Positions 1 to 56,512 of a DNA stretch of 64,000 bases are shown here, piece by piece. The notes beneath the pieces are model-generated. The model worked only from the letters and a program-made list of their open reading frames with translations. It was not told the DNA's origin and did not search any database. Position numbers and translations under genes: made by a program. How positions within the stretch are numbered: the first letter of the stretch is position 1; each line of letters opens with the position of its first letter. This stretch comes from Escherichia phage EcNP1: the sequence record NC_054910.1. One strand, written 5' to 3'.

Positions 1-998
1 CATACACTGCCCAGTTTCCAACTGGGCGTGCTAGTGGTAATGACACTACAGGGGACTTCCAGGTAACAGATCTATATAAGAATGGATTATTATTTACTGC
101 ATACAATATGTCATCTAGGGATTCTGGAAGTCTTAGATCGATGAGATCTAACTACTCTTCTTCATCTTCGAGTATTTTACGCACAGCCAGAAACACTATC
201 AGTAATACAGTATCAAAACTGTCAAATGGATTAATATCAGATAATAATTCAGGAACAATAAGTAAAGCCCCTGTTGCAAATATTCTTTTACCAAGATCTA
301 AATCTGACGTTGATACGTCATCACATAGATTTAATGATGTTCAAGAAAGTCTTATCAGCAGAGGCGGAGGTACTGCTACTGGTGTGCTAAGTAATATTGC
401 TTCAACTGCAGTCTTTGGAGCACTGGAAAGTATAACACAAGGTATAATGGCTGATAATAATGAACAGATTTATACGACAGCCAGAAGTATGTATGGTGGT
501 GCTGAGAATAGAACTAAAGTGTTTACATGGGATTTGACTCCACGTTCCACAGAAGATTTAATGGCTATTATTAATATCTATCAATATTTTAACTATTTTT
601 CTTATGGTGAAACGGGTAAATCTCAATATGCTGCTGAAATAAAGGGGTATTTAGATGATTGGTATCGTTCTACGTTAATTGAACCTTTATCTCCGGAAGA
701 CGCAGCTAAAAATAAAACACTATTTGAGAAAATGACATCGAGTTTAACTAACGTTCTAGTAGTTTCAAACCCGACAATTTGGATGGTGAAAAACTTTGGT
801 GCAACATCTAAGTTTGATGGAAAAACTGAAATATTTGGTCCATGCCAAATACAGAGTATCAGATTTGATAAAACACCTAATGGTAACTTTAACGGATTAG
901 CTATTGCTCCAAACCTCCCTAGTACATTTACTCTTGAGATTACTATGAGAGAAATTATCACGTTAAACCGTGCTTCTTTATATGCGGGGACTTTTTAA
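1..998 (+). CDS. 48: baseplate/tail-tube protein gp48 (5' end upstream of window)
   Basis: Frame is open from the window start to the stop at 996-998, so track ORF 108..998 is an internal-Met remnant; stop overlaps next ATG; lies directly upstream of a gp54-sized ORF as in the T4 late operon. Confidence 0.65.
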   Translation, partial: YTAQFPTGRASGNDTTGDFQVTDLYKNGLLFTAYNMSSRDSGSLRSMRSNYSSSSSSILRTARNTISNTVSKLSNGLISDNNSGTISKAPVANILLPRSKSDVDTSSHRFNDVQESLISRGGGTATGVLSNIASTAVFGALESITQGIMADNNEQIYTTARSMYGGAENRTKVFTWDLTPRSTEDLMAIINIYQYFNYFSYGETGKSQYAAEIKGYLDDWYRSTLIEPLSPEDAAKNKTLFEKMTSSLTNVLVVSNPTIWMVKNFGATSKFDGKTEIFGPCQIQSIRFDKTPNGNFNGLAIAPNLPSTFTLEITMREIITLNRASLYAGTF

Positions 999-1963
999 TG
1001 TATTCTTTAGAGGAATTTAATAATCAAGCAATAAACGCAGATTTCCAACGTAATAATATGTTTAGCTGCGTTTTTGCGACAACTCCATCAACTAAAAGCT
1101 CTTCGTTGATAAGTTCAATTAGCAACTTTTCTTATAATAACTTGGGTCTAAATTCAGATTGGTTAGGATTGACTCAAGGCGATATTAATCAGGGAATTAC
1201 CACGCTAATTACTGCTGGCACACAAAAACTGATAAGAAAATCAGGAGTTAGTAAATATCTTATTGGTGCCATGAGTCAACGTACAGTTCAAAGTTTATTG
1301 GGCTCATTTACAGTTGGTACATATTTAATTGACTTCTTTAACATGGCATATAACTCATCTGGATTGATGATATATTCTGTAAAAATGCCAGAGAATAGAT
1401 TATCCTATGAAACTGACTGGAACTATAATTCTCCTAATATTCGTATAACTGGGAGAGAATTAGACCCTTTGGTTATTTCATTTAGAATGGATTCAGAAGC
1501 ATGTAATTATCGCGCAATGCAAGACTGGGTTAATGCTGTTCAAGACCCAGTAACTGGACTGCGTGCTTTGCCGCAAGATGTCGAGGCAGATATTCAGGTT
1601 AATCTTCATGCTCGTAATGGATTACCTCATACTGCAGTGATGTTCACCGGATGCATTCCAGTGTCAGTGAGCGCTCCTGAGTTATCATATGATGGAGATA
1701 ACCAAATAACTACATTTGATGTTACTTTTGCGTATAGAGTCATGCAGGCTGGAGCGGTTGATAGACAAGCTGCGCTTGAGTGGCTTGAATCTGCTGCTAT
1801 AAATGGCATTCAAAGCGTTCTCGGAAATAGTGGAGGCGTTACTGGACTATCTAATTCGCTTTCACGACTTAGTAGATTAGGAGGAACTGCGGGAAGCATT
1901 TCAAACATTAATACTATGACGGGAATTGTCAATTCGCAAAGTAAAATATTAGGAGCAATATAA
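998..1963 (+). CDS. 54: baseplate tail-tube initiator gp54
   Basis: 321 aa (T4 gp54 is 320 aa); position 48-54 next to alt as in T4; followed by a strong terminator. Confidence 0.7.
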   Translation: MYSLEEFNNQAINADFQRNNMFSCVFATTPSTKSSSLISSISNFSYNNLGLNSDWLGLTQGDINQGITTLITAGTQKLIRKSGVSKYLIGAMSQRTVQSLLGSFTVGTYLIDFFNMAYNSSGLMIYSVKMPENRLSYETDWNYNSPNIRITGRELDPLVISFRMDSEACNYRAMQDWVNAVQDPVTGLRALPQDVEADIQVNLHARNGLPHTAVMFTGCIPVSVSAPELSYDGDNQITTFDVTFAYRVMQAGAVDRQAALEWLESAAINGIQSVLGNSGGVTGLSNSLSRLSRLGGTAGSISNINTMTGIVNSQSKILGAI

Positions 1964-4403: not shown

Positions 4404-6500
4404 TTATCCTTGAACGAACTTGTAAGGCATGTTTGTAATATCTATGCAAGACGCAATAATTCCAAGAGATGATTCTACTTTCTGTTTAACGTTTGATGAA
4501 ACAAATGATGCAAAGTCAACTCTGTCTTCTATTTCAATATCACCTGTCATTGCAACTACTTCACCAGTTTCCATTAAATGGTCTCCATCATAAATTACTG
4601 ATTCGGTGAGTTCTTCTGTAGTCATAACTTCAGCTTGAATGAGTTTTGTATTATTAGATGTTGTTCCGTCATTATTAGAAGCATCAGTTATTTTATTAAC
4701 TTTGACCATCAATCCGCGCGGTAGAATAACTTCAGCTTCTGTTGCTATTCCGAGACTTCCTGGATATACAACATTAACTTTATGAGCTCCATCAATTGCC
4801 CATCCTATTTGAACTTTAACGTATTCAGGATTTTCTTTATACGCTCTTATTTCGTTTGGATTAATAGTTATTCCTTCTTCATTTTTATCAACTGTCAATT
4901 CATTACGAGCTTCTGGTTCTAAAAGACCAATACCAGCATGTGTAATTCCAAAACGTCCAAAAATGATAGGAGTTAAAGAAGTAGATACAAAATTTCTGAA
5001 ATAGAACACTTTATTTTTAACTAGTGCTTCGTATATAGGAGCAGTCATACTTTGAGCACGATAAACTGTAATGCCTTCTGGTATACGGTCACCATTTTCA
5101 AAAGCTGAATCTAAGTTATTTATAGCAGATTCAATTTCTTTTTCACTCATTACATCATATCGTTCTGGATTGTAGCGGCCTAAAAGAAGATTATTGATGT
5201 CAGTATATCCTGATCCACAATACTCTCTAATGCCGCGCTTTTGCGATGGAGTATATTTAGAACCATCGCGTGCAATGGTAATATCAATCATTGGACCTGC
5301 ACCAATTCCAGAAAAACTATAAATCATTCGTTTGAGGAATTTAGTTTTTGCTGCGTTCCAGGAATTTTTAGTTATTTCTTCCCAGACTTCATCTGGCTGT
5401 CCTTTACGGGTTTTATTATGTTTATCAAGCCATTTATCTTTGTATTCTTCAAAGAATTTATTAACAGCTGCTGCGTATTTCTCTAAACATTTTATTGAAG
5501 TAGTTGGTTCATTTTTAATCGCATTAAGAATTACATCTTTAATTTTTTCAGAAACTTCATTAACCTCACTTTTTGAAAAGAATTTATAGTCATAGTGAAG
5601 TTCATCTGCAGTTCCTTCAGCAATAATTTTTGCTGCCTTAGTTTTAGAAGCTAATGAATTAATTCCAAGCTTCATTTCTTCTGCTTCTGGAATTAAAGGA
5701 GCAGTAGCAGGTTTATTGAAATTAGCTGCAGTAGATTCATACTTCTGGAATAATTCGCTTTCAAATCTAGAAGATTCTAATGATTGACTTTGCGCAATTG
5801 CTCTACGGGAAATTTTAACTTTAACGATTACAGCTTGGTCAGAGCGTTTATCATTTTCTTGCGCAATAGATGCTGCAATTGCCTCATTTTTAGTTACTTG
5901 AGCACCAGTATCTTTATTGATATAAACATCGCCGACTTTTGATTCAACTTTAGTAAAGAGCTCGGTACTAATTTCCGGAACTCCCGGAATGTCTTCTAGT
6001 GATACATTTTTACGATGTATAAGAATATATGCATACTTTTTATCATAATCCCAGAGTTCCTTAAGAAGGACGTATCTGCCACCTGAACGACTACGGATAA
6101 GTCTATCAGCAATAACTTGAATTTGTCGAGCTTGACCAGCAGTTTTAGACTTAAGAATACGGAGCATACAGGCATCAATTTTATACTGACGCATCGTCTG
6201 CATTGCAACAGTAAAAACTGAATTGATATAATTAATTGGGCTTGGACCGAGACCTTTTAATTTAGCAATTGAACCTTTAGCAGTTAATGTAAAAGGAACA
6301 ATATGCATCATTTTATCGCCCATTTTTAAATCGCGATTAGTATCACCTCCAGATGTATAGGTACATAAACGAAAGCCTGGTTGTTCAATTGCGTCATCGA
6401 CATGAACTGAAAAAATTTGCGGTATTTTCTTCTTTGGATTTAAGTTTGTAATCGGAAGAGTAGTATCTTCGTCAAATAATTCTGTAATGAGTTCCATCAT
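4404..6500 (-). CDS. alt: Alt ADP-ribosyltransferase (head-packaged, injected)
   Basis: 698 aa (T4 Alt 682 aa); ART motifs VYRAQ / FVSTSL / TEAEVILPRG; position between gene 54 and gene 30 as in T4. Confidence 0.85.
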   Translation of the reverse strand: MMELITELFDEDTTLPITNLNPKKKIPQIFSVHVDDAIEQPGFRLCTYTSGGDTNRDLKMGDKMMHIVPFTLTAKGSIAKLKGLGPSPINYINSVFTVAMQTMRQYKIDACMLRILKSKTAGQARQIQVIADRLIRSRSGGRYVLLKELWDYDKKYAYILIHRKNVSLEDIPGVPEISTELFTKVESKVGDVYINKDTGAQVTKNEAIAASIAQENDKRSDQAVIVKVKISRRAIAQSQSLESSRFESELFQKYESTAANFNKPATAPLIPEAEEMKLGINSLASKTKAAKIIAEGTADELHYDYKFFSKSEVNEVSEKIKDVILNAIKNEPTTSIKCLEKYAAAVNKFFEEYKDKWLDKHNKTRKGQPDEVWEEITKNSWNAAKTKFLKRMIYSFSGIGAGPMIDITIARDGSKYTPSQKRGIREYCGSGYTDINNLLLGRYNPERYDVMSEKEIESAINNLDSAFENGDRIPEGITVYRAQSMTAPIYEALVKNKVFYFRNFVSTSLTPIIFGRFGITHAGIGLLEPEARNELTVDKNEEGITINPNEIRAYKENPEYVKVQIGWAIDGAHKVNVVYPGSLGIATEAEVILPRGLMVKVNKITDASNNDGTTSNNTKLIQAEVMTTEELTESVIYDGDHLMETGEVVAMTGDIEIEDRVDFASFVSSNVKQKVESSLGIIASCIDITNMPYKFVQG

Positions 6501-12045: not shown

Positions 12046-12381
12046 TCACTTATAAAGACACGGAATAGCTTTATAGTGACAGGTAACGAATTTTTGTTTA
12101 ATTTCTTTTGGCTGCTTAAGTCCCAGAGCTACAAAAGGATGCGGAACGTTTCGAATTTGACCAACTGGAAGAGAAGTCAAATCACCAACTTCGCAGAAAC
12201 CTTCAGGAACATCAGGACCAACGGAGTGAACTACACACAGTTCAGGAACTTCACCTTGAACACGTTTACCGATAATAAGTCCTGATTCTGTAACTTCTTC
12301 ATCACCGGCTTGCGCAGGTTCAGAAACTAAAATAACGTATTCACCGACAGCACGAATTGGTAGCTGTTGTACTTCAGACAT
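12046..12381 (-). CDS. 31: co-chaperonin gp31 (GroES analogue for capsid folding)
   Basis: 111 aa (T4 gp31 111 aa); position upstream of rIII. Confidence 0.85.
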
Positions 12382-51657: not shown

Positions 51658-51687
51658 ATTATACCACATCCTTGTGGTAAAGTAAAC
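51658..51687 (-). promoter_or_regulatory. T4-type early promoter for the rIIA operon
   Basis: Minus strand GTTTAC (overlapping gene 39 stop) + 18 nt + TATAAT with TGG extended -10; CCACA/TGTGG inverted repeat in spacer. Confidence 0.6.
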
Positions 51688-53507
51688 TATTGGCTCATCC
51701 ATTCTTTACGAAGGTCAGCATTATCTCCCATGAGCATTTCAAAAAGCTCTTTCCAGTTCTCAGGAAGTTTAACAACATCATATACTGGGTTTTGAATCAT
51801 CTCACGATATTCAGATTTTTCCAAAGAGCCAAGTCCCTTAATATAACGGATGCTATGTTTAGGTAGAGCATCTTTAGCACTCTCATATTCAGCGACTGTA
51901 TAAAACCATTCTTGTTTTTTACCGACCTGAGCGATGATTACAGGAGTTTTGACAAAGCGAATTCTTCCTTGTTCAAACAGTTCTGGCCAATTACTAAAAA
52001 ATCCGAGCAGAGAAGGATAAATGCTTCCTAGACCATCATGGTCAGCATCAGTCATAATAGCAATATTATGATAATTCAAGTTTTCGGCTTTTTCACCAAG
52101 AACTAATCCAGTGATTGCGCAAATATCAAACAGCTCTTTGTTTTTAAGCATATCAGCATATGACATACCCCAGCTGTTAAGAACTTTACCACGCAATGGA
52201 TAACCGCCATGAAGTTCTTTATCACGAACATCAATAAGATATCCGATAGCAGAATCACCCTCAGTCAAGAAAAGAGTAGTGTCAGCATCTTTACCACAAA
52301 GATTCGCTTTAATATGTTTATGAACCTTAGCTTTAGAGGCCTTTTTAGCTGCTTTAGTTTCTGCTGCTTTTTCTGCCGCCAATTTACGAGCCAAGGCAGC
52401 TTCAATGATTGGCATTAAAATTGCTTCATTATTTAAAATAGCACGTGAAATCTTTTTAGCATCAAGCTGAATATGACTACGAATTTCACCAAATGGAGAA
52501 GTCAAACGCTCTTTAGTTTGAGAATCAAATCGCATGTTTTTCATATCACGAACAAACATAACGATAGTCAAACATTCTTTAACACGTGCTTTAGTTACAT
52601 CAATTTTGAATTTACGTTTGATTTGTGGAATAAGGTCTTCACAAATATCATCCATAACACAATCAATATGATGGCCACCATTCTTGGTATGAATGTTATT
52701 GACGTATGTTAATTGACGAAAACCATCCGGTGAACGACCGACCGCAATAGAACAATTTTCTTGTTCTTGAACGATAGCATGTTCATCATATTGGCGTGCA
52801 TATTTCTTAAAATTACCCTGAACCTTTTTACCATTAAAGGTAAATTGAATATCAGGATAAACTACTGCAAGTGTCTGGAGACGATCCAGTGTAATGTCAA
52901 GATAAACTTGAGATAGCTCATTAGTTTCAAATGACATAAAATCAGGAATAAAAGTAACGCGAGTTCCTTTCCATTTTCCAGGAATATCTTCCCATGATTT
53001 ATTTTCCATGCCATTCGAGCAGCGAACTACAATATTATTTTGACCGTCGCCAGTTTCACCGACAAACATCACAGAAAAAATGTTAGTTAAACTAGAACCA
53101 ACACCGTTCATACCGCCAGTGACGCGTTCTTTATCATCACCAAAGTTACCACCTGCTTTTGGAATAGTCCATGCAGCAACAGGACCAGGAATTTCTTCAC
53201 CGGTAGGTGTTTTAACCATCGCCTGTGGAATACCACGACCGTTATCTTCAACTGTTACTTGATTGTTTTTGATAGTAACATTAATTTTATTTGCGAATTT
53301 AAACTTAGTACGAATACCTTCATCTACTGAGTTATCAATAATTTCATCAATAAGCTTAACAAGACCAGGTACATACTGAACACTTTCCCATTTACCAAAC
53401 AGAAAGCGCTCATGCATTTCATTAGCAGAAGAGCCAATATACATGCCGCTACGCTTTTTGATATGTTCAATATCGCTCAGAATTTTAATTTCATTCTTAA
53501 TCATCAC
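51687..53507 (-). CDS. 39: DNA topoisomerase II large subunit, unsplit (T4 gp39 + gp60 equivalent)
   Basis: 606 aa single ORF; GyrB-type ATPase motif VEDNGRGIP; no internal stop, bypass gap or inserted gene. Confidence 0.92.
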   Translation of the reverse strand: MMIKNEIKILSDIEHIKKRSGMYIGSSANEMHERFLFGKWESVQYVPGLVKLIDEIIDNSVDEGIRTKFKFANKINVTIKNNQVTVEDNGRGIPQAMVKTPTGEEIPGPVAAWTIPKAGGNFGDDKERVTGGMNGVGSSLTNIFSVMFVGETGDGQNNIVVRCSNGMENKSWEDIPGKWKGTRVTFIPDFMSFETNELSQVYLDITLDRLQTLAVVYPDIQFTFNGKKVQGNFKKYARQYDEHAIVQEQENCSIAVGRSPDGFRQLTYVNNIHTKNGGHHIDCVMDDICEDLIPQIKRKFKIDVTKARVKECLTIVMFVRDMKNMRFDSQTKERLTSPFGEIRSHIQLDAKKISRAILNNEAILMPIIEAALARKLAAEKAAETKAAKKASKAKVHKHIKANLCGKDADTTLFLTEGDSAIGYLIDVRDKELHGGYPLRGKVLNSWGMSYADMLKNKELFDICAITGLVLGEKAENLNYHNIAIMTDADHDGLGSIYPSLLGFFSNWPELFEQGRIRFVKTPVIIAQVGKKQEWFYTVAEYESAKDALPKHSIRYIKGLGSLEKSEYREMIQNPVYDVVKLPENWKELFEMLMGDNADLRKEWMSQ

Positions 53508-53573
53508 TTATCCTCGTTTGGTTTCGGGAATATTATACTCCAGTAATCATAAAGCTAAAGGCCCGAAGGCCTT

Positions 53574-53843
53574 TTATTTAAAACGGATAGTCGAATCCTT
53601 GAAGAATAGACCAGAACATACTGTTCCTTCTACTTTCTGCCCGGTAGGTCCAATAGCACGAAATCCAGTGTGTTGGAAATCATTTTCAGAGCAACCGAAC
53701 CAATTATATCCAGTGATTTCAATATTAGTAAAACCACTTGAAGACAAAACTTTGGTTGCATTATCGGCATCAGTACATCCTACTAAAGATACTGCTAATA
53801 CTAATGCCGCGATAGAACGATTAACATATTTCATAATTTTCAC
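53574..53843 (-). CDS. predicted lipoprotein (89 aa)
   Basis: Signal peptide with lipobox AVSLVGC; Cys-containing mature region. Confidence 0.6.
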   Translation of the reverse strand: MKIMKYVNRSIAALVLAVSLVGCTDADNATKVLSSSGFTNIEITGYNWFGCSENDFQHTGFRAIGPTGQKVEGTVCSGLFFKDSTIRFK

Positions 53844-54217
53844 TTAAATTTAATGGCTTGAAGGAGACTAATAATTCTCAAGCGACTTCTTTCATCTTTA
53901 ACTGTAAAAGAAAGAGGGTCACCAGATTTCATAGTGATGGTGCATCCAAAATCAAAATCTTCTGTAACTTCTTCGAATAGGTCAAATTCTTCATCATAAA
54001 TTAGAACATTACTCTGAAAACTGTGAAGAATTTTTCCATCATTTCCAGATGCTGTACTAATCATTGTAACATTATTACCCTTCATATCTTCAACGATAAA
54101 TTCGCCTGTAGATATTACATTACTAATAGAACCATTCCTATAAATAGCAGAAAATAGATATTTCTTTTCTTCACCTTCGCGAATGCGATATTTCTTACCG
54201 ATTTTAAACATAATCAT
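53840..54217 (-). CDS. hypothetical protein (125 aa)
   Basis: Track ORF. Confidence 0.5.
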   Translation of the reverse strand: MIMFKIGKKYRIREGEEKKYLFSAIYRNGSISNVISTGEFIVEDMKGNNVTMISTASGNDGKILHSFQSNVLIYDEEFDLFEEVTEDFDFGCTITMKSGDPLSFTVKDERSRLRIISLLQAIKFK

Positions 54218-54390
54218 CCTTTAAGTAAGTCGTAAAATCCACCATTCACATGCTTAGGAGCAGAAGGCCGACGAGTAGACAAACGATGACATTTAGGGCA
54301 AACATCATTTTCTCGTTCAGAAATCTTTTTAATTTTTTCATATTCATGCCCGCAATCTTCGGATTGGCATTTATAATCATACATTGGCAT
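54214..54390 (-). CDS. zinc-ribbon protein (58 aa, FmdB-like CxxC...CPxC)
   Basis: Not in track; MPMYDYKCQSEDCGHEYEKIKKISERENDVCPKCH...; ATGA overlaps with both neighbours. Confidence 0.5.
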   Translation of the reverse strand: MPMYDYKCQSEDCGHEYEKIKKISERENDVCPKCHRLSTRRPSAPKHVNGGFYDLLKG

Positions 54391-54392
54391 AA

Positions 54393-54812
54393 TTATTCCT
54401 TAAAGTGTGCTTTCAACATCTGATACAAGGACCATGCCTGTTCATTATTTTCAATAGTAACTTTCATTACCGGGAATTCTGTGAAATCTTCTATTTGTTC
54501 TTGCTCTTCCTGCTCTTGTTCTTCAGCAGCCTGATATGGATTTTCCACTTCATCAAAGAACCTAGCTTCACTTTTTGAAAGCCAAATAAAGTCTTCATCC
54601 AAAACATCTTTACCAGAAGATAGTACTAAATTTCCAGTAGATGACAAAATTTTAATAGGACGCCCAAGAGCGTCCACATCTAAAATTTTAAAAGGATACA
54701 TTCGTAAACGTCGCGCATAGATTCCGTTATCAGTATGGTCTTTAATAAAATTTTCTTGAGCTTGTTTATTTTTAAATTGATACCATTTATTAACTTCAAA
54801 TTTAATAGCCAT
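54393..54812 (-). CDS. hypothetical protein (139 aa; possibly goF-like by size/position)
   Basis: Track ORF; acidic Glu/Gln-rich segment. Confidence 0.45.
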
Positions 54813-55027
54813 TAATAAATTTCCTTCCAGTAAGTTGTGCCATCTTCAGTAATTTCACGAAATACACCGTAAATTGGCTGTTTATCACCAACCTTTTCAT
54901 ACACATAAACCGAAGTCAAGTGAGTAAACTTAACGGTATGTTCCTTTTGAACCACTACCAAATCTGGATCGAATAATACATCTTCAAATTCGTCATTAGT
55001 GCAGTTCTGAACAATTTTACGTTTCAT
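54812..55027 (-). CDS. hypothetical protein (71 aa; possibly cef-like by size/position)
   Basis: Track ORF. Confidence 0.4.
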
Positions 55028-55040
55028 TACAATTTCCTCA

Positions 55041-55322
55041 TTAATTGAACAGTGGAGCGATGCGTTTCAGAAGAGTAGCAGCACCTTTGGCAAATTTTAC
55101 ATCATGAAAAACAGTTTCTTCTTCCGTTACAACACGAACTTTAATGTTTTCACAATCCCAATTTTTGCGAACAATCTTCAAAAGCTGCAGTAAATCTTTA
55201 CATTCAGCAATATCGATAACACACCCACGAGAATCTTCCATTATCGCACGATAACCGTAAGCCATACCATAATCGTTGAAAGATTGCTCGATGATAATTA
55301 AGTTTTCCATTTTATTCTCCAA
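55041..55322 (-). CDS. hypothetical protein (93 aa)
   Basis: Track ORF. Confidence 0.5.
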   Translation of the reverse strand: MENKMENLIIIEQSFNDYGMAYGYRAIMEDSRGCVIDIAECKDLLQLLKIVRKNWDCENIKVRVVTEEETVFHDVKFAKGAATLLKRIAPLFN

Positions 55323-55407
55323 GTTGTTTTCTGTATCAGTAGTTGATATTGATATAGTACCATAATCAACTACTGATGTATATAGTTTTATGAAAAAATT
55401 TTAAACT

Positions 55408-55896
55408 TTATGCATAGAGAGCTTTGCTATAGTGTTTAATCCAACTTTCAGGAATGACTTTGTATGTTCCTAAAAATACCACGTTATACAACTTAACGCC
55501 ATCTTCTACCCACTGATCGGTAATGTATGCGCACATAGCACGAGTATAAACAGCCGCTCCATCATCTTTGATAAATTTAAATTCACAAGGAGAAACGAAC
55601 TTAATAGCCTGACCGAGTTTCCACTTAAAATCTACACCTACATGTGAAGTATCAATCGTTTCAATTCCTTTAGCAGGAACAGCTTTCAAAAACGCAGATT
55701 CAAGAAATTTCGCACGAACATAGCCAAACTGAGGTTTAGACTTTCCATCTTTAGGAATGATACGCACTTTTACTTCAGAATCTTCATCTTTAACGCCATG
55801 TTTAAGCTGAATGCTTACAATTTCGACCAATTTTCCTGCTGCTTTAGAACGGGATTTATCAGATACACGAGCAATTTCACCAATATTAATAATCAT
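55408..55896 (-). CDS. motB: MotB-like protein
   Basis: 162 aa (T4 MotB 162 aa); position between gene 39 side and dexA. Confidence 0.55.
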   Translation of the reverse strand: MIINIGEIARVSDKSRSKAAGKLVEIVSIQLKHGVKDEDSEVKVRIIPKDGKSKPQFGYVRAKFLESAFLKAVPAKGIETIDTSHVGVDFKWKLGQAIKFVSPCEFKFIKDDGAAVYTRAMCAYITDQWVEDGVKLYNVVFLGTYKVIPESWIKHYSKALYA

Positions 55897-55940
55897 AGTT
55901 ATCTCTCACTTGTTAAAAAGATTTTATACTCCACGGGACC

Positions 55941-55970
55941 ATTATACTCTGGTCCCAAGAGTTTGTAAAC
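55941..55970 (-). promoter_or_regulatory. T4-type early promoter
   Basis: Minus strand GTTTAC + 18 nt + TATAAT flanked by GGGACC/GGTCCC inverted repeat. Confidence 0.55.
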
Positions 55971-55972
55971 TA

Positions 55973-56512
55973 TTAATTTAAAATAGCTACCACTGCACTA
56001 CGAGGTACTACACTAAAATCACCTGCATGAACAACGTTCAGAAGTTCAACACCATCTTCAATCCACTGGTCTGTTACCCAACCACAGACCGAAATAAATG
56101 GAGTCTTGATAGCTACCGCACGAGTCAAAAGGTCAGTAGGATCGCATTCTTGGAAGAGGATGAACTCTGCTTCAAAGACTATAGTTTTAATTACTTCATC
56201 ATTATCTAAACGGTGTACTCGAATCACGTAAGCTTTATTCTTATCATGCCAGTTACTTTTTGAAAAGCTTTTAACCACAAACTCGCCTTCACCAAAAACA
56301 TTAGTCAATGCTTTATAACCCAAATTTAGTTCAGTAGTTTTAATTTCAGTTTCAACCAGTTTGTAGATTTTGCCGATTTCAATAGCGGTAGTCATAGTAG
56401 GTTCCTTAATTTCCAGTGGTTTAACAGGGCATACATAAGTGCTTACAACATCAAAATCAATCAGTTTAGCTACCGGATTCGGTGTGTATTCAGGATTATA
56501 ATTAAATTTCAT
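55973..56512 (-). CDS. MotB paralog (179 aa)
   Basis: C-terminal (I/V)TDQW(V/I)EDGV.L.NVV segment shared with the adjacent MotB-like ORF. Confidence 0.5.
   Translation of the reverse strand: MKFNYNPEYTPNPVAKLIDFDVVSTYVCPVKPLEIKEPTMTTAIEIGKIYKLVETEIKTTELNLGYKALTNVFGEGEFVVKSFSKSNWHDKNKAYVIRVHRLDNDEVIKTIVFEAEFILFQECDPTDLLTRAVAIKTPFISVCGWVTDQWIEDGVELLNVVHAGDFSVVPRSAVVAILN

What the first reader, a model, noticed from the sequence alone, without database searches (positions are those of the whole stretch)
54214..54390. Unannotated zinc-ribbon micro-protein in the gene 39-motB interval
A 58-aa ORF missed by the ORF track (below length cut-off) encodes CQSEDC...CPKC, the FmdB-type zinc-ribbon arrangement. 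Its start and stop overlap the flanking ORFs by ATGA, typical of translationally coupled phage early genes. Small zinc ribbons in phage early regions often act as regulators or host-factor binders.
Basis: seen in the sequence. Interest (0 to 1): 0.45.

Follow-up and report, generated by a model that had tools for sequence, protein, structure and literature searches.

The report
T4-type gene 39.2, GroEL modulator
The 58-codon reading frame is a real gene, but it is the long-known T-even phage gene 39.2, whose small zinc-ribbon product (NwgI) was reported in 2012 to tune the host GroEL protein-folding machine, so the finding is correct but not new.

Summary
The ORF at 54214..54390 (minus strand, 58 aa) exists as described. 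It is the orthologue of T-even phage gene 39.2. The identical protein is encoded in more than 200 deposited phage genomes. It is 93% identical to RB69 gp39.2 and 81% to re-sequenced T4 gp39.2. It lies in the conserved position goF – 39.2 – (39.1) – 39.

It passes the curated cut-offs of Pfam Zn_ribbon_8 and TIGR02605 (FmdB family). Three of the four predicted zinc ligands are invariant in 41 homologues; the fourth is replaced only by His. dN/dS is about 0.1.

Ang & Georgopoulos (Genetics 2012) described the function. I could cite it only through two later papers. Gp39.2/NwgI shifts host GroEL towards its open, co-chaperonin-accepting state, and a T4 39.2 deletion cannot grow on certain groEL mutants.

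"Unannotated" does not, and only the 3' junction is an ATGA overlap.

Two side results are my own:
- The M. tuberculosis redox chaperone Ruc belongs to the same Pfam family.
- In one clade of jumbo phages the 39.2-like gene sits directly upstream of a GroES gene.

Both argue that the common database label "FmdB-like transcriptional regulator" is misleading.

Verdict: already known, low interest.

The parts
54214..54390 (-). Gene 39.2 coding sequence (58 aa plus TGA stop); FmdB/Zn_ribbon_8 family micro-protein, orthologue of T4/RB69 gp39.2 (NwgI)
   Evidence: ORF listed. Pfam PF09723 45.7 bits against a cut-off of 34.4. TIGR02605 44.9 bits against 31.3. 93% identical to RB69 gp39.2 and 81% to T4 MT984581 gp39.2. 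dN/dS 0.08-0.12.
54397..54401 (-). Shine-Dalgarno AAGGA, 6 nt upstream of the ATG, embedded in the last codons of goF
   Evidence: Read directly from the minus-strand sequence; inferred function.
54352..54369 (-). First zinc knuckle, Cys8-x4-Cys13 (CQSEDC)
   Evidence: Cys8 is invariant. Cys13 is conserved except in Krischvirus-type homologues, which have CxxH. Zinc binding is inferred from the family; Ruc was shown to bind one Zn through its four Cys (PMC7448276).
54289..54300 (-). Second zinc knuckle, Cys31-x2-Cys34 (CPKC)
   Evidence: Both Cys are invariant in 41 homologues. Some lineages have CxC instead of CxxC.
54229..54264 (-). Conserved post-ribbon tail motif SAPKHVNGGFYD (residues 43-54), predicted unstructured
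   Evidence: Conserved in Straboviridae and Vequintavirinae homologues. It aligns with the 'SAPxFxFKGSGFYxTDY' stretch of cellular FmdB-family proteins. The AF2 model has pLDDT 52-61 here.
54214..54217 (-). ATGA overlap: TGA stop of 39.2 and ATG start of the downstream 125-aa ORF
54393..54812 (-). goF (comC-alpha), upstream neighbour; its stop lies 2 nt before the 39.2 start (context)
   Evidence: phrog_622 and goF PHROGs. The same order is seen in T4, RB69, JS10, fPS-90 and IME340.
53840..54217 (-). 125-aa ORF, a distant goF-family paralogue, downstream neighbour (context; absent from T4)
   Evidence: phrog_622 E 1e-28. Pairwise BLASTP against goF is not significant. Present in IME340 and ASO78A, absent in T4, JS10 and fPS-90.
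12049..12381 (-). Gene 31, the phage co-chaperonin that replaces GroES on host GroEL; functional partner of the pathway that gp39.2 is reported to modulate

Best explanation
This is gene 39.2 of a T2/T4/T6-like phage (Tequatrovirus). It is read from the minus strand as part of the early/middle motB-cef-goF-39.2-...-39.1 gene string and is translated from its own Shine-Dalgarno, two bases after the goF stop.

The 58-aa product has two parts:
- a four-stranded zinc ribbon, with Cys8/Cys13 and Cys31/Cys34 expected to hold one Zn;
- a short flexible tail carrying a conserved SAPKHVNGGFYD motif.

According to published genetics and biochemistry on the RB69 and T4 orthologues, the protein (NwgI) acts on the host chaperonin GroEL. 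It shifts GroEL towards the open conformation that accepts a co-chaperonin, either host GroES or the phage's own gp31 (gene 31 is at 12049..12381 in this window). GroEL-dependent folding, above all of the major capsid protein, is thereby kept efficient on hosts whose GroEL is suboptimal.

Shown here: gene identity, family membership, conservation, purifying selection, and the predicted fold. Taken from the literature: the GroEL effect. Inferred: that this allele behaves like the RB69 and T4 alleles, that zinc is bound, and that the conserved tail is the contact surface.
For: Identity:
- The exact protein is found in at least 214 phage records at 99% identity or more, with 884 records matching overall.
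- 93% identity to RB69 gp39.2 and 81% to T4 gp39.2.
- Conserved synteny next to goF and upstream of gene 39 in Tequatrovirus, Mosigvirus, Dhakavirus, Tegunavirus, Krischvirus and Pseudotevenvirus.

Real gene:
- dN/dS 0.08-0.12.
- Invariant M1, P2, Y4, Y6, C8, R26, C31, C34.

Family: PF09723 and TIGR02605 above their cut-offs.

Fold: the AF2 model has pLDDT 75.6, four strands and a low-confidence tail.

Function:
- Georgopoulos's own account says the T4 39.2 gene encodes a 58-aa peptide that is a subtle modulator of GroES/GroEL. It shifts GroEL to the open conformation, and a T4 39.2 deletion is blocked on specific groEL mutants (PMC5153855).
- The same conclusion is summarised in PMC4396842.

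Independent genomic support found here:
- In Eneladusvirus-like jumbo phages the 39.2-like gene, with the same unusual Cx4C knuckle, lies immediately upstream of a Cpn10/GroES gene in all six loci examined.
- Another characterised member of the same Pfam family, M. tuberculosis Ruc, is a chaperone. It is co-regulated with groES/groEL by HrcA, and its homologues are often encoded next to chaperone genes (PMC7448276).
Against: - The primary paper (Genetics 190:989, PMID 22234860) is not in the held library, so the experimental details come from two secondary descriptions and from my memory of the abstract.
- No experiment concerns this exact allele.
- No structure of gp39.2 or of a gp39.2-GroEL complex exists in the PDB copy searched, so the contact surface and stoichiometry are unknown.
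- The GroES adjacency occurs in one clade only. None of 80 other viral loci has a GroES-like neighbour.
- Most database records call the protein an 'FmdB-like transcriptional regulator'.
Confidence: 0.8

Rival explanations
1. A Ruc-like redox-switched holdase. The zinc ribbon keeps the protein inactive. Oxidation or zinc loss then exposes a client-binding surface that holds unfolded phage proteins for DnaK or GroEL, rather than acting on GroEL itself.
For: It belongs to the same Pfam family as Ruc. The Ruc N-terminus, reconstructed from the paper's primers, scores 51.1 bits on PF09723. Ruc binds one Zn through four Cys and becomes a holdase on oxidation. The post-ribbon motif is shared with cellular family members.
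Against: Ruc residues 1-49, lacking the long disordered C-terminus, have no holdase activity. gp39.2 has only an 18-residue tail and lacks the long hydrophilic region seen in cellular members. The published description of gp39.2 is of an effect on the GroEL open/closed equilibrium and on co-chaperonin binding.
Confidence: 0.1
2. An FmdB-like transcriptional regulator. The zinc ribbon would bind DNA or RNA polymerase and alter early or middle transcription, like its neighbours motB, srd and modA.
For: This is the database name carried by many records and by phrog_1076. The gene sits in a block rich in transcription and RNA modifiers. The top Foldseek matches include RNA-polymerase-binding zinc ribbons such as RbpA and RNAP subunit P, but at E of 0.4 or worse, which is not significant.
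Against: The label is inherited from a family name, and I found no paper testing it. There is no DNA-binding domain beyond a 40-residue ribbon. The two family members for which I found experiments, gp39.2 and Ruc, both act in protein folding.
Confidence: 0.05
3. A chance open reading frame in an AT-rich genome that is not translated.
For: ORFs of this length arise about 28 times per 64 kb in shuffled sequence. Two other ORFs of 44 and 57 aa overlap it in other frames.
Against: dN/dS is about 0.1 in this frame. The HMM scores are above curated cut-offs. The frame is kept from T-even to Vequintavirinae and jumbo phages. A good Shine-Dalgarno is present. A deletion phenotype has been published.
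Confidence: 0.01

Closest known systems
Gp39.2 / NwgI of phages T4, RB69, RB43, RB49 (Ang & Georgopoulos, Genetics 2012; PMID 22234860)
   Same: It is the same gene: 93% identical to RB69 and 81% to T4, the same 58-59 aa length, and the same position between goF and 39.1/39. The same Cys ligands and tail motif are present.
   Different: It is an allele of the RB69 type carried in a Tequatrovirus backbone. It is followed by an extra 125-aa goF-family ORF that T4 lacks. The activity of this allele has not been tested.
Ruc (Rv0991c) of Mycobacterium tuberculosis, a redox-regulated chaperone (PMC7448276)
   Same: It is in the same Pfam family, PF09723. It has the same N-terminal MPxYxYxC signature, two Cys pairs about 17-20 residues apart, and a post-ribbon G-x-G-aromatic-Tyr stretch in cellular relatives. 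Both are linked to the chaperone network: Ruc through the HrcA regulon and DnaK, gp39.2 through GroEL.
   Different: Ruc has a long disordered hydrophilic C-terminus that is required for holdase activity, and it is activated by oxidation. gp39.2 has only an 18-residue tail, a Cx4C first knuckle, and is described as acting on GroEL. The Ruc paper never uses the words 'phage' or 'FmdB'.
FmdB family zinc ribbon proteins (Pfam PF09723 Zn_ribbon_8; TIGR02605 CxxC_CxxC_SSSS)
   Same: It scores above both curated cut-offs over residues 1-41.
   Different: The canonical family has CxxC...CxxC and usually a Ser-rich or hydrophilic tail. Here the first knuckle is Cx4C and the tail is short. The 'regulatory protein' name of the family appears untested: I found no paper testing it, and it is contradicted by the two members for which I found experiments.
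Phage co-chaperonins gp31 (T4), CocO (RB49) and phage GroES
   Same: They belong to the same host-takeover theme, in which the phage adapts host GroEL to fold its capsid protein. gp31 is encoded in this window. In jumbo phages the 39.2-like gene is adjacent to GroES.
   Different: gp31 and GroES are about 100-aa beta-barrel lids that form heptamers on GroEL. gp39.2 is an unrelated 58-aa zinc ribbon that modulates rather than replaces the lid.
Hsp33 (redox-regulated zinc chaperone)
   Same: A four-Cys zinc centre acts as a possible switch. This analogy is drawn for Ruc in PMC7448276.
   Different: The fold and size are unrelated. There is no evidence that gp39.2 is redox-controlled.

Membership tests
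T-even gene 39.2 (NwgI) orthologous group | High sequence identity to the experimentally studied RB69 and T4 proteins over the full length | tested here: met
   53/57 identical to RB69; 47/58 identical to re-sequenced T4.
T-even gene 39.2 (NwgI) orthologous group | Conserved genomic position: downstream of goF, upstream of 39.1 and gene 39, same strand | tested here: met
   Window order. The same order is seen in T4, RB69, JS10, fPS-90, IME340, ASO78A and moskry.
T-even gene 39.2 (NwgI) orthologous group | Modulates GroEL: suppresses groEL mutant phenotypes, and the deletion phage is blocked on groEL mutants | not testable with these tools
   Literature only, for T4 and RB69. The primary paper is not held.
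FmdB family / Pfam Zn_ribbon_8 (PF09723), TIGR02605 | Profile HMM score above the curated cut-off | tested here: met
   PF09723: 45.7 bits against 34.4. TIGR02605: 44.9 bits against 31.3.
FmdB family / Pfam Zn_ribbon_8 (PF09723), TIGR02605 | Two Cys pairs (canonically CxxC ... CxxC) forming a zinc ribbon | tested here: met
   Two pairs are present and conserved, but the first is Cx4C rather than CxxC. The AF2 model gives four short strands as expected for a ribbon.
FmdB family / Pfam Zn_ribbon_8 (PF09723), TIGR02605 | N-terminal MPxYxYxC signature starting at residue 1 | tested here: met
   MPMYDYKC; M1, P2, Y4, Y6 and C8 are invariant.
FmdB family / Pfam Zn_ribbon_8 (PF09723), TIGR02605 | Binds one zinc ion through the four Cys | not testable with these tools
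   Shown for Ruc only; inferred here.
FmdB family / Pfam Zn_ribbon_8 (PF09723), TIGR02605 | Acts as a transcriptional regulator (the meaning of the family's name) | not testable with these tools
   No supporting experiment was found in the library. This is not a defining sequence feature.
Ruc-type redox-regulated chaperones | N-terminal zinc-ribbon domain of the same family | tested here: met
   Ruc residues 1-40, reconstructed from primers with 3 unknown and 1 assumed residue, score 51.1 bits on PF09723. Direct BLASTP of gp39.2 against Ruc is weak: 24% identity, E 9e-5 for the single comparison.
Ruc-type redox-regulated chaperones | Hydrophilic intrinsically disordered C-terminal region (7-61 residues in Ruc homologues), required for holdase activity | tested here: inconclusive
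   gp39.2 ends 18 residues after the ribbon with a conserved motif rather than a variable hydrophilic tail. That length is within the range the paper quotes for Ruc homologues. RucNterm 1-49 is inactive.
Ruc-type redox-regulated chaperones | Chaperone activity switched on by Cys oxidation or zinc release | not testable with these tools
   A biochemical assay is needed.

The most novel reading that the evidence does not exclude
The whole FmdB / Zn_ribbon_8 / Ruc family is present in most bacterial phyla and is still widely labelled 'regulatory protein'. It could be a family of chaperone-machine cofactors, with phage gp39.2 as its minimal form.

On this reading, the conserved post-ribbon Gly-Gly-aromatic-Tyr stretch is the docking peptide. 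That stretch reads NGGFYDLL here and KGSGFYxTDY in cellular members. It would insert into the GroEL apical-domain groove (or the DnaK substrate site) much as the GroES mobile loop AGGIVL does.

Several observations are compatible with this:
- Ruc and gp39.2 share one Pfam family.
- The 39.2-like gene is adjacent to GroES in jumbo phages.
- The motif is conserved from phage to cellular members.

The resemblance to the mobile loop is my own recollection and is untested. I found no paper in the held library that mentions both Rv0991c and 39.2.
Probability: 0.15. Interest if true: 0.5.

Novelty: already known. Interest (0 to 1): 0.13.

Why it matters
For the scan, it does not matter much. This is a correct re-discovery of a catalogued gene with a published function, missed only because of a 60-aa ORF cut-off.

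Two practical points follow:
- The widespread database label "FmdB-like transcriptional regulator" for this gene is probably wrong. The two members of the family for which I found experiments (gp39.2/NwgI and mycobacterial Ruc) both act in protein folding.
- The old T4 reference sequence (NC_000866/AF158101) carries errors here. They truncate 39.2 to 45 aa and 39.1 to 65 aa, which can mislead comparisons.

If the family-wide chaperone-cofactor reading were true, it would give a function to a very widespread bacterial family of small proteins.

Tried and rejected
- Primary paper: look-ups by PMC id and by DOI both failed because it is not held. I used two secondary descriptions instead.
- Other citing papers only list the reference or the gene name.
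- PDB sequence search gave only a chance-level bL31 match, E 0.78.
- Foldseek of the AF2 model against the PDB gave nothing below E 0.4, only assorted zinc ribbons, so no specific structural relative can be named.
It was repeated with A2.
- A single-sequence word-index search found only 7 close relatives. The profile search found 90.
- GroES-like neighbours among 80 IMG/VR loci: none. The adjacency is restricted to one jumbo-phage clade and cannot be counted as several independent events.
- The sigma-70 promoter and terminator scan of 53400..56000 was not above shuffled expectation, and there was no site directly upstream of 39.2. The gene is most simply co-transcribed with goF. The one strong match (TTTACA-17-TATAAT, 55969..55941, minus strand) lies upstream of motB.
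- Literature on FmdB zinc ribbons in phages: nothing.
- I considered that the frame is broken in T4, since the reference annotates 45 aa. I rejected this: all re-sequenced T4 genomes give 58 aa.

Full report
**1. What is in the sequence**

The minus strand of 54214..54390 carries an ATG-to-TGA ORF of 58 codons: MPMYDYKCQSEDCGHEYEKIKKISERENDVCPKCHRLSTRRPSAPKHVNGGFYDLLKG. The cysteines are at positions 8 and 13 (CQSEDC, spacing Cx4C) and at 31 and 34 (CPKC).

At the 5' end there is no overlap. The upstream ORF ends with TAA at 54395..54393, two bases follow, and the ATG is at 54390..54388. An AAGGA Shine-Dalgarno at 54401..54397 lies inside the last codons of the upstream gene.

Length alone is not evidence of a gene. 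Shuffles of this 36% G+C window give about 28 ATG ORFs of 58 aa or more per 64 kb, and two other ORFs of 44 and 57 aa overlap this one in other frames.

**2. What it is**

The neighbours identify the region. Minus-strand order is:
- motB (55408..55896);
- a 93-aa ORF (55041..55322);
- cef (54812..55027; Pfam T4_Cef, 119 bits);
- goF (54393..54812);
- this ORF;
- a 125-aa goF-family ORF (53840..54217);
- 39.1 (53574..53843);
- an unsplit 606-aa gene 39 (51687..53507).

The window is a Tequatrovirus mosaic. Its best matches are 96-97% identical over 25 kb.

Three lines of evidence identify the gene:
- A tblastn search with the 58-aa protein hits 884 phage records. Of these, 850 cover at least 80% of it and 214 are at least 99% identical.
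- In those records the ORF is annotated as '39.2', 'gp39.2', 'FmdB-like transcriptional regulator' or 'zinc ribbon domain protein'.
- It is 93% identical to the RB69 protein and 81% identical to T4 gp39.2.

It is therefore gene 39.2. It is not unannotated except with respect to a 60-aa ORF cut-off.

**3. A trap in the T4 reference**

NC_000866/AF158101 annotates 39.2 as only 45 aa. Compared with the window, the reference has one extra T that brings a TAA into frame. The +1 frame continues with PKHGNNGFYDLLKG.

Only the old records (M89919, AF158101, NC_000866) carry this version. Every independently re-sequenced T4 listed (HM137666, KJ477684-6, MT984581, OL964735, the OZ records) differs from the old reference at about 3% of these 301 bases. 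In MT984581 the gene is 58 aa and 39.1 is a full 86-aa protein with a signal-peptide-like N-terminus.

So the frame is not interrupted in T4.

**4. Is it a functional gene?**

Nei-Gojobori estimates against T4, ASO78A, fPS-90 and the Mosigvirus moskry give dN/dS of 0.08-0.12, with dS between 0.5 and 1.1. This is strong purifying selection in this frame.

Homologues keep the same position upstream of gene 39 in the following genera:

| Genus | Example phage |
|---|---|
| Mosigvirus | RB69, moskry |
| Dhakavirus | JS10 |
| Tegunavirus | TG1 |
| Krischvirus | RB49, Makalu_003 |
| Pseudotevenvirus | RB43 |

They also occur in other contexts in Vequintavirinae and in jumbo phages.

Residue conservation:
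- In an alignment of 41 homologues, Y4, Y6, C8, R26, C31 and C34 are invariant, and M1, P2 and K22 are nearly so.
- Cys13 is present in every row shown except the Krischvirus type, which reads C-E-E-H, so His probably serves as the ligand.
- The first knuckle is Cx4C in T-even-type and jumbo-phage proteins and CxxC elsewhere. The second knuckle is CxxC, or CxC in Vequintavirinae and RB43.

**5. Family and fold**

The protein scores 45.7 bits on Pfam Zn_ribbon_8 (PF09723, gathering cut-off 34.4). It scores 44.9 bits on TIGR02605 'FmdB family zinc ribbon protein' (cut-off 31.3). It also hits phrog_1076.

An AlphaFold2 model built on the 41-sequence alignment has mean pLDDT 75.6. It has four short strands (3-8, 16-20, 28-30, 37-40) and a low-confidence tail from about residue 41. 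This is what a zinc ribbon with a flexible tail should look like.

Foldseek against the PDB finds nothing better than E 0.4. The list is a mixture of unrelated small zinc ribbons. No PDB chain is related by sequence.

The tail is predicted to be flexible yet is conserved. SAPKHVNGGFYD aligns with the 'SAPxFxFKGSGFYxTDY' stretch that follows the ribbon in cellular FmdB-family proteins. Those cellular proteins then continue into long hydrophilic tails that gp39.2 lacks.

**6. How it works**

The function has been published. Georgopoulos's own account states four things (PMC5153855):
- The T4 39.2 gene encodes a 58-amino-acid peptide.
- Genetic and biochemical data suggest that Gp39.2 shifts GroEL towards its open conformation, which can bind host and phage co-chaperonins.
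- A T4 39.2 deletion, unlike wild type, is completely blocked on specific groEL mutant hosts.

PMC4396842 summarises it the same way. The primary paper (Ang & Georgopoulos, Genetics 190:989, 2012) is not held. From memory of its abstract, the gene was first picked up from RB69, and the T4, RB43 and RB49 homologues behaved alike. If so, both the CxxH variant (RB49) and the CxC variant (RB43) are functional.

The phage's own co-chaperonin gene 31 is present in this window at 12049..12381.

The most likely mechanism for the window's protein is therefore a zinc-ribbon micro-protein that acts on host GroEL and favours the co-chaperonin-accepting state. This would secure gp31/GroEL-dependent folding of capsid protein. 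The assignment of this function to this allele is an inference from 93% identity to RB69 and 81% to T4.

**7. Two pieces of independent support found here**

First, synteny with GroES. In Eneladusvirus-like jumbo phages the 39.2-like gene is 66-69 aa and has the same unusual Cx4C knuckle (CQNEEC). It lies directly upstream of a Cpn10/GroES gene in all six loci examined:
- Klebsiella phage fENko-Kae01, where the neighbour scores 66.6 bits on Pfam Cpn10;
- Yersinia phage fHe-Yen9-04, where the neighbour is annotated 'co-chaperonin GroES';
- four metagenomic contigs.

These loci share their flanking genes, so this is one conserved block rather than several independent events. No GroES-like neighbour was found in 80 other viral loci.

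Second, the link to Ruc. M. tuberculosis Ruc (Rv0991c) is a chaperone whose N-terminal zinc-ribbon domain has the same signature. The N-terminal 40 residues were reconstructed from the primers printed in the paper (MPTYSYECTQCANRFDVV...DDALTTCERCSGRLRKLF, with three unknown and one assumed residue). They score 51.1 bits on PF09723.

What is known about Ruc:
- It binds one zinc through its four Cys.
- It becomes a holdase on oxidation and cooperates with DnaK/DnaJ/GrpE.
- It is repressed by HrcA together with groES/groEL.
- Its homologues are often encoded next to DnaK, ClpB, HrcA or GroES/GroEL genes.

That paper never uses the words 'phage' or 'FmdB', and no held paper contains both 'Rv0991c' and '39.2'. 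So the two family members for which I found experiments both act in proteostasis. The 'transcriptional regulator' label looks like a propagated name with no test behind it.

**8. Rivals**

- **Ruc-like redox holdase.** This is possible but less likely. Ruc without its long disordered tail is inactive, gp39.2 has only 18 residues after the ribbon, and the published description concerns the GroEL equilibrium.
- **DNA- or RNAP-binding regulator.** This has only the database name and non-significant fold matches in its favour.
- **Chance ORF.** This is excluded by selection and conservation.

**9. Verdict**

The ORF, the Cys pattern, the 3' ATGA overlap and the location all hold. The 5' overlap claim is wrong.

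The FmdB-type zinc ribbon and the host-factor-binder guess hold. 'Unannotated' and 'regulator' do not.

The feature is already known as gene 39.2/NwgI, so interest is low. The most novel reading not excluded is that the FmdB/Ruc family as a whole are chaperone-machine cofactors that use the conserved Gly-Gly-aromatic-Tyr stretch as a docking peptide. I rate this at about 15%.

Noticed in passing
L002 (NC_000866) 5398..5839 compared with L094 (MT984581) 662..1101 and window 53574..54390: The old T4 reference sequence has errors here. An extra T truncates 39.2 to 45 aa, and further differences cut 39.1 to 65 aa without its N-terminus. All re-sequenced T4 genomes differ at about 3% of 301 bases and give a 58-aa gp39.2 and an 86-aa gp39.1.
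   Followed up: yes
L010 2001..2494; L013 2001..2517; L096 3001..3516; L097 1949..2464; L098 3001..3516; L099 3001..3496: In Eneladusvirus-like jumbo phages (350-370 kb), a 66-69-aa gp39.2-like zinc ribbon with the same Cx4C knuckle lies immediately upstream of a Cpn10/GroES gene. In one locus the two genes overlap. The adjacency is conserved across all six loci looked at.
   Followed up: partly
Literature: PMC7448276 (Ruc/Rv0991c) compared with window 54214..54390: The mycobacterial redox-regulated chaperone Ruc falls in the same Pfam family (PF09723) as gp39.2. The Ruc paper never uses the words 'phage' or 'FmdB', and no held paper mentions both Rv0991c and 39.2. The database name 'FmdB-like transcriptional regulator' therefore looks misleading.
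   Followed up: partly
window 53840..54217 (-): A 125-aa ORF sits between 39.2 and 39.1, and its start overlaps the 39.2 stop. It matches the same PHROG as goF (phrog_622, E 1e-28), although pairwise BLASTP against goF is not significant. It is present in IME340 and ASO78A but absent from T4, JS10 and fPS-90. RB69 and moskry have a 140-aa ORF in the corresponding position.
   Followed up: partly
window 53574..53843 (-): Gene 39.1 here is 89 aa. It has a signal-peptide-like N-terminus ending in a lipobox-like LVGC (MKIMKYVNRSIAALVLAVSLVGCTDAD...), which suggests a small lipoprotein. Its function is unknown (phrog_902).
   Followed up: no
window 51687..53507 (-): Gene 39 is a single 606-aa topoisomerase II large subunit, with no split into 39 and 60 and no mobA or 60.1 insertion. 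It therefore also lacks the gene 60 translational-bypass segment of T4.
   Followed up: no
window 55041..55322 (-): A 93-aa ORF lies between cef and motB. It has a strong PHROG match of unknown function (phrog_3720, E 1e-46). T4 has only a 170-nt gap at this position.
   Followed up: no
window 55973..56512 (-) and 55408..55896 (-): The C-terminal ~55 residues of the 179-aa ORF upstream of motB match the MotB PHROG (phrog_1671, E 1.5e-16). MotB residues 82-152 in turn match that ORF's PHROG (phrog_2333). The two adjacent genes therefore share a C-terminal module.
   Followed up: no
window 12049..12381 (-): Gene 31, the phage co-chaperonin for GroEL, is in the window. It is 100% identical to the T4 gp31 sequence as I remembered it and matches phrog_931 'head morphogenesis'. 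It lies about 42 kb from 39.2, so the two GroEL-directed genes are not linked in T-even phages.
   Followed up: partly
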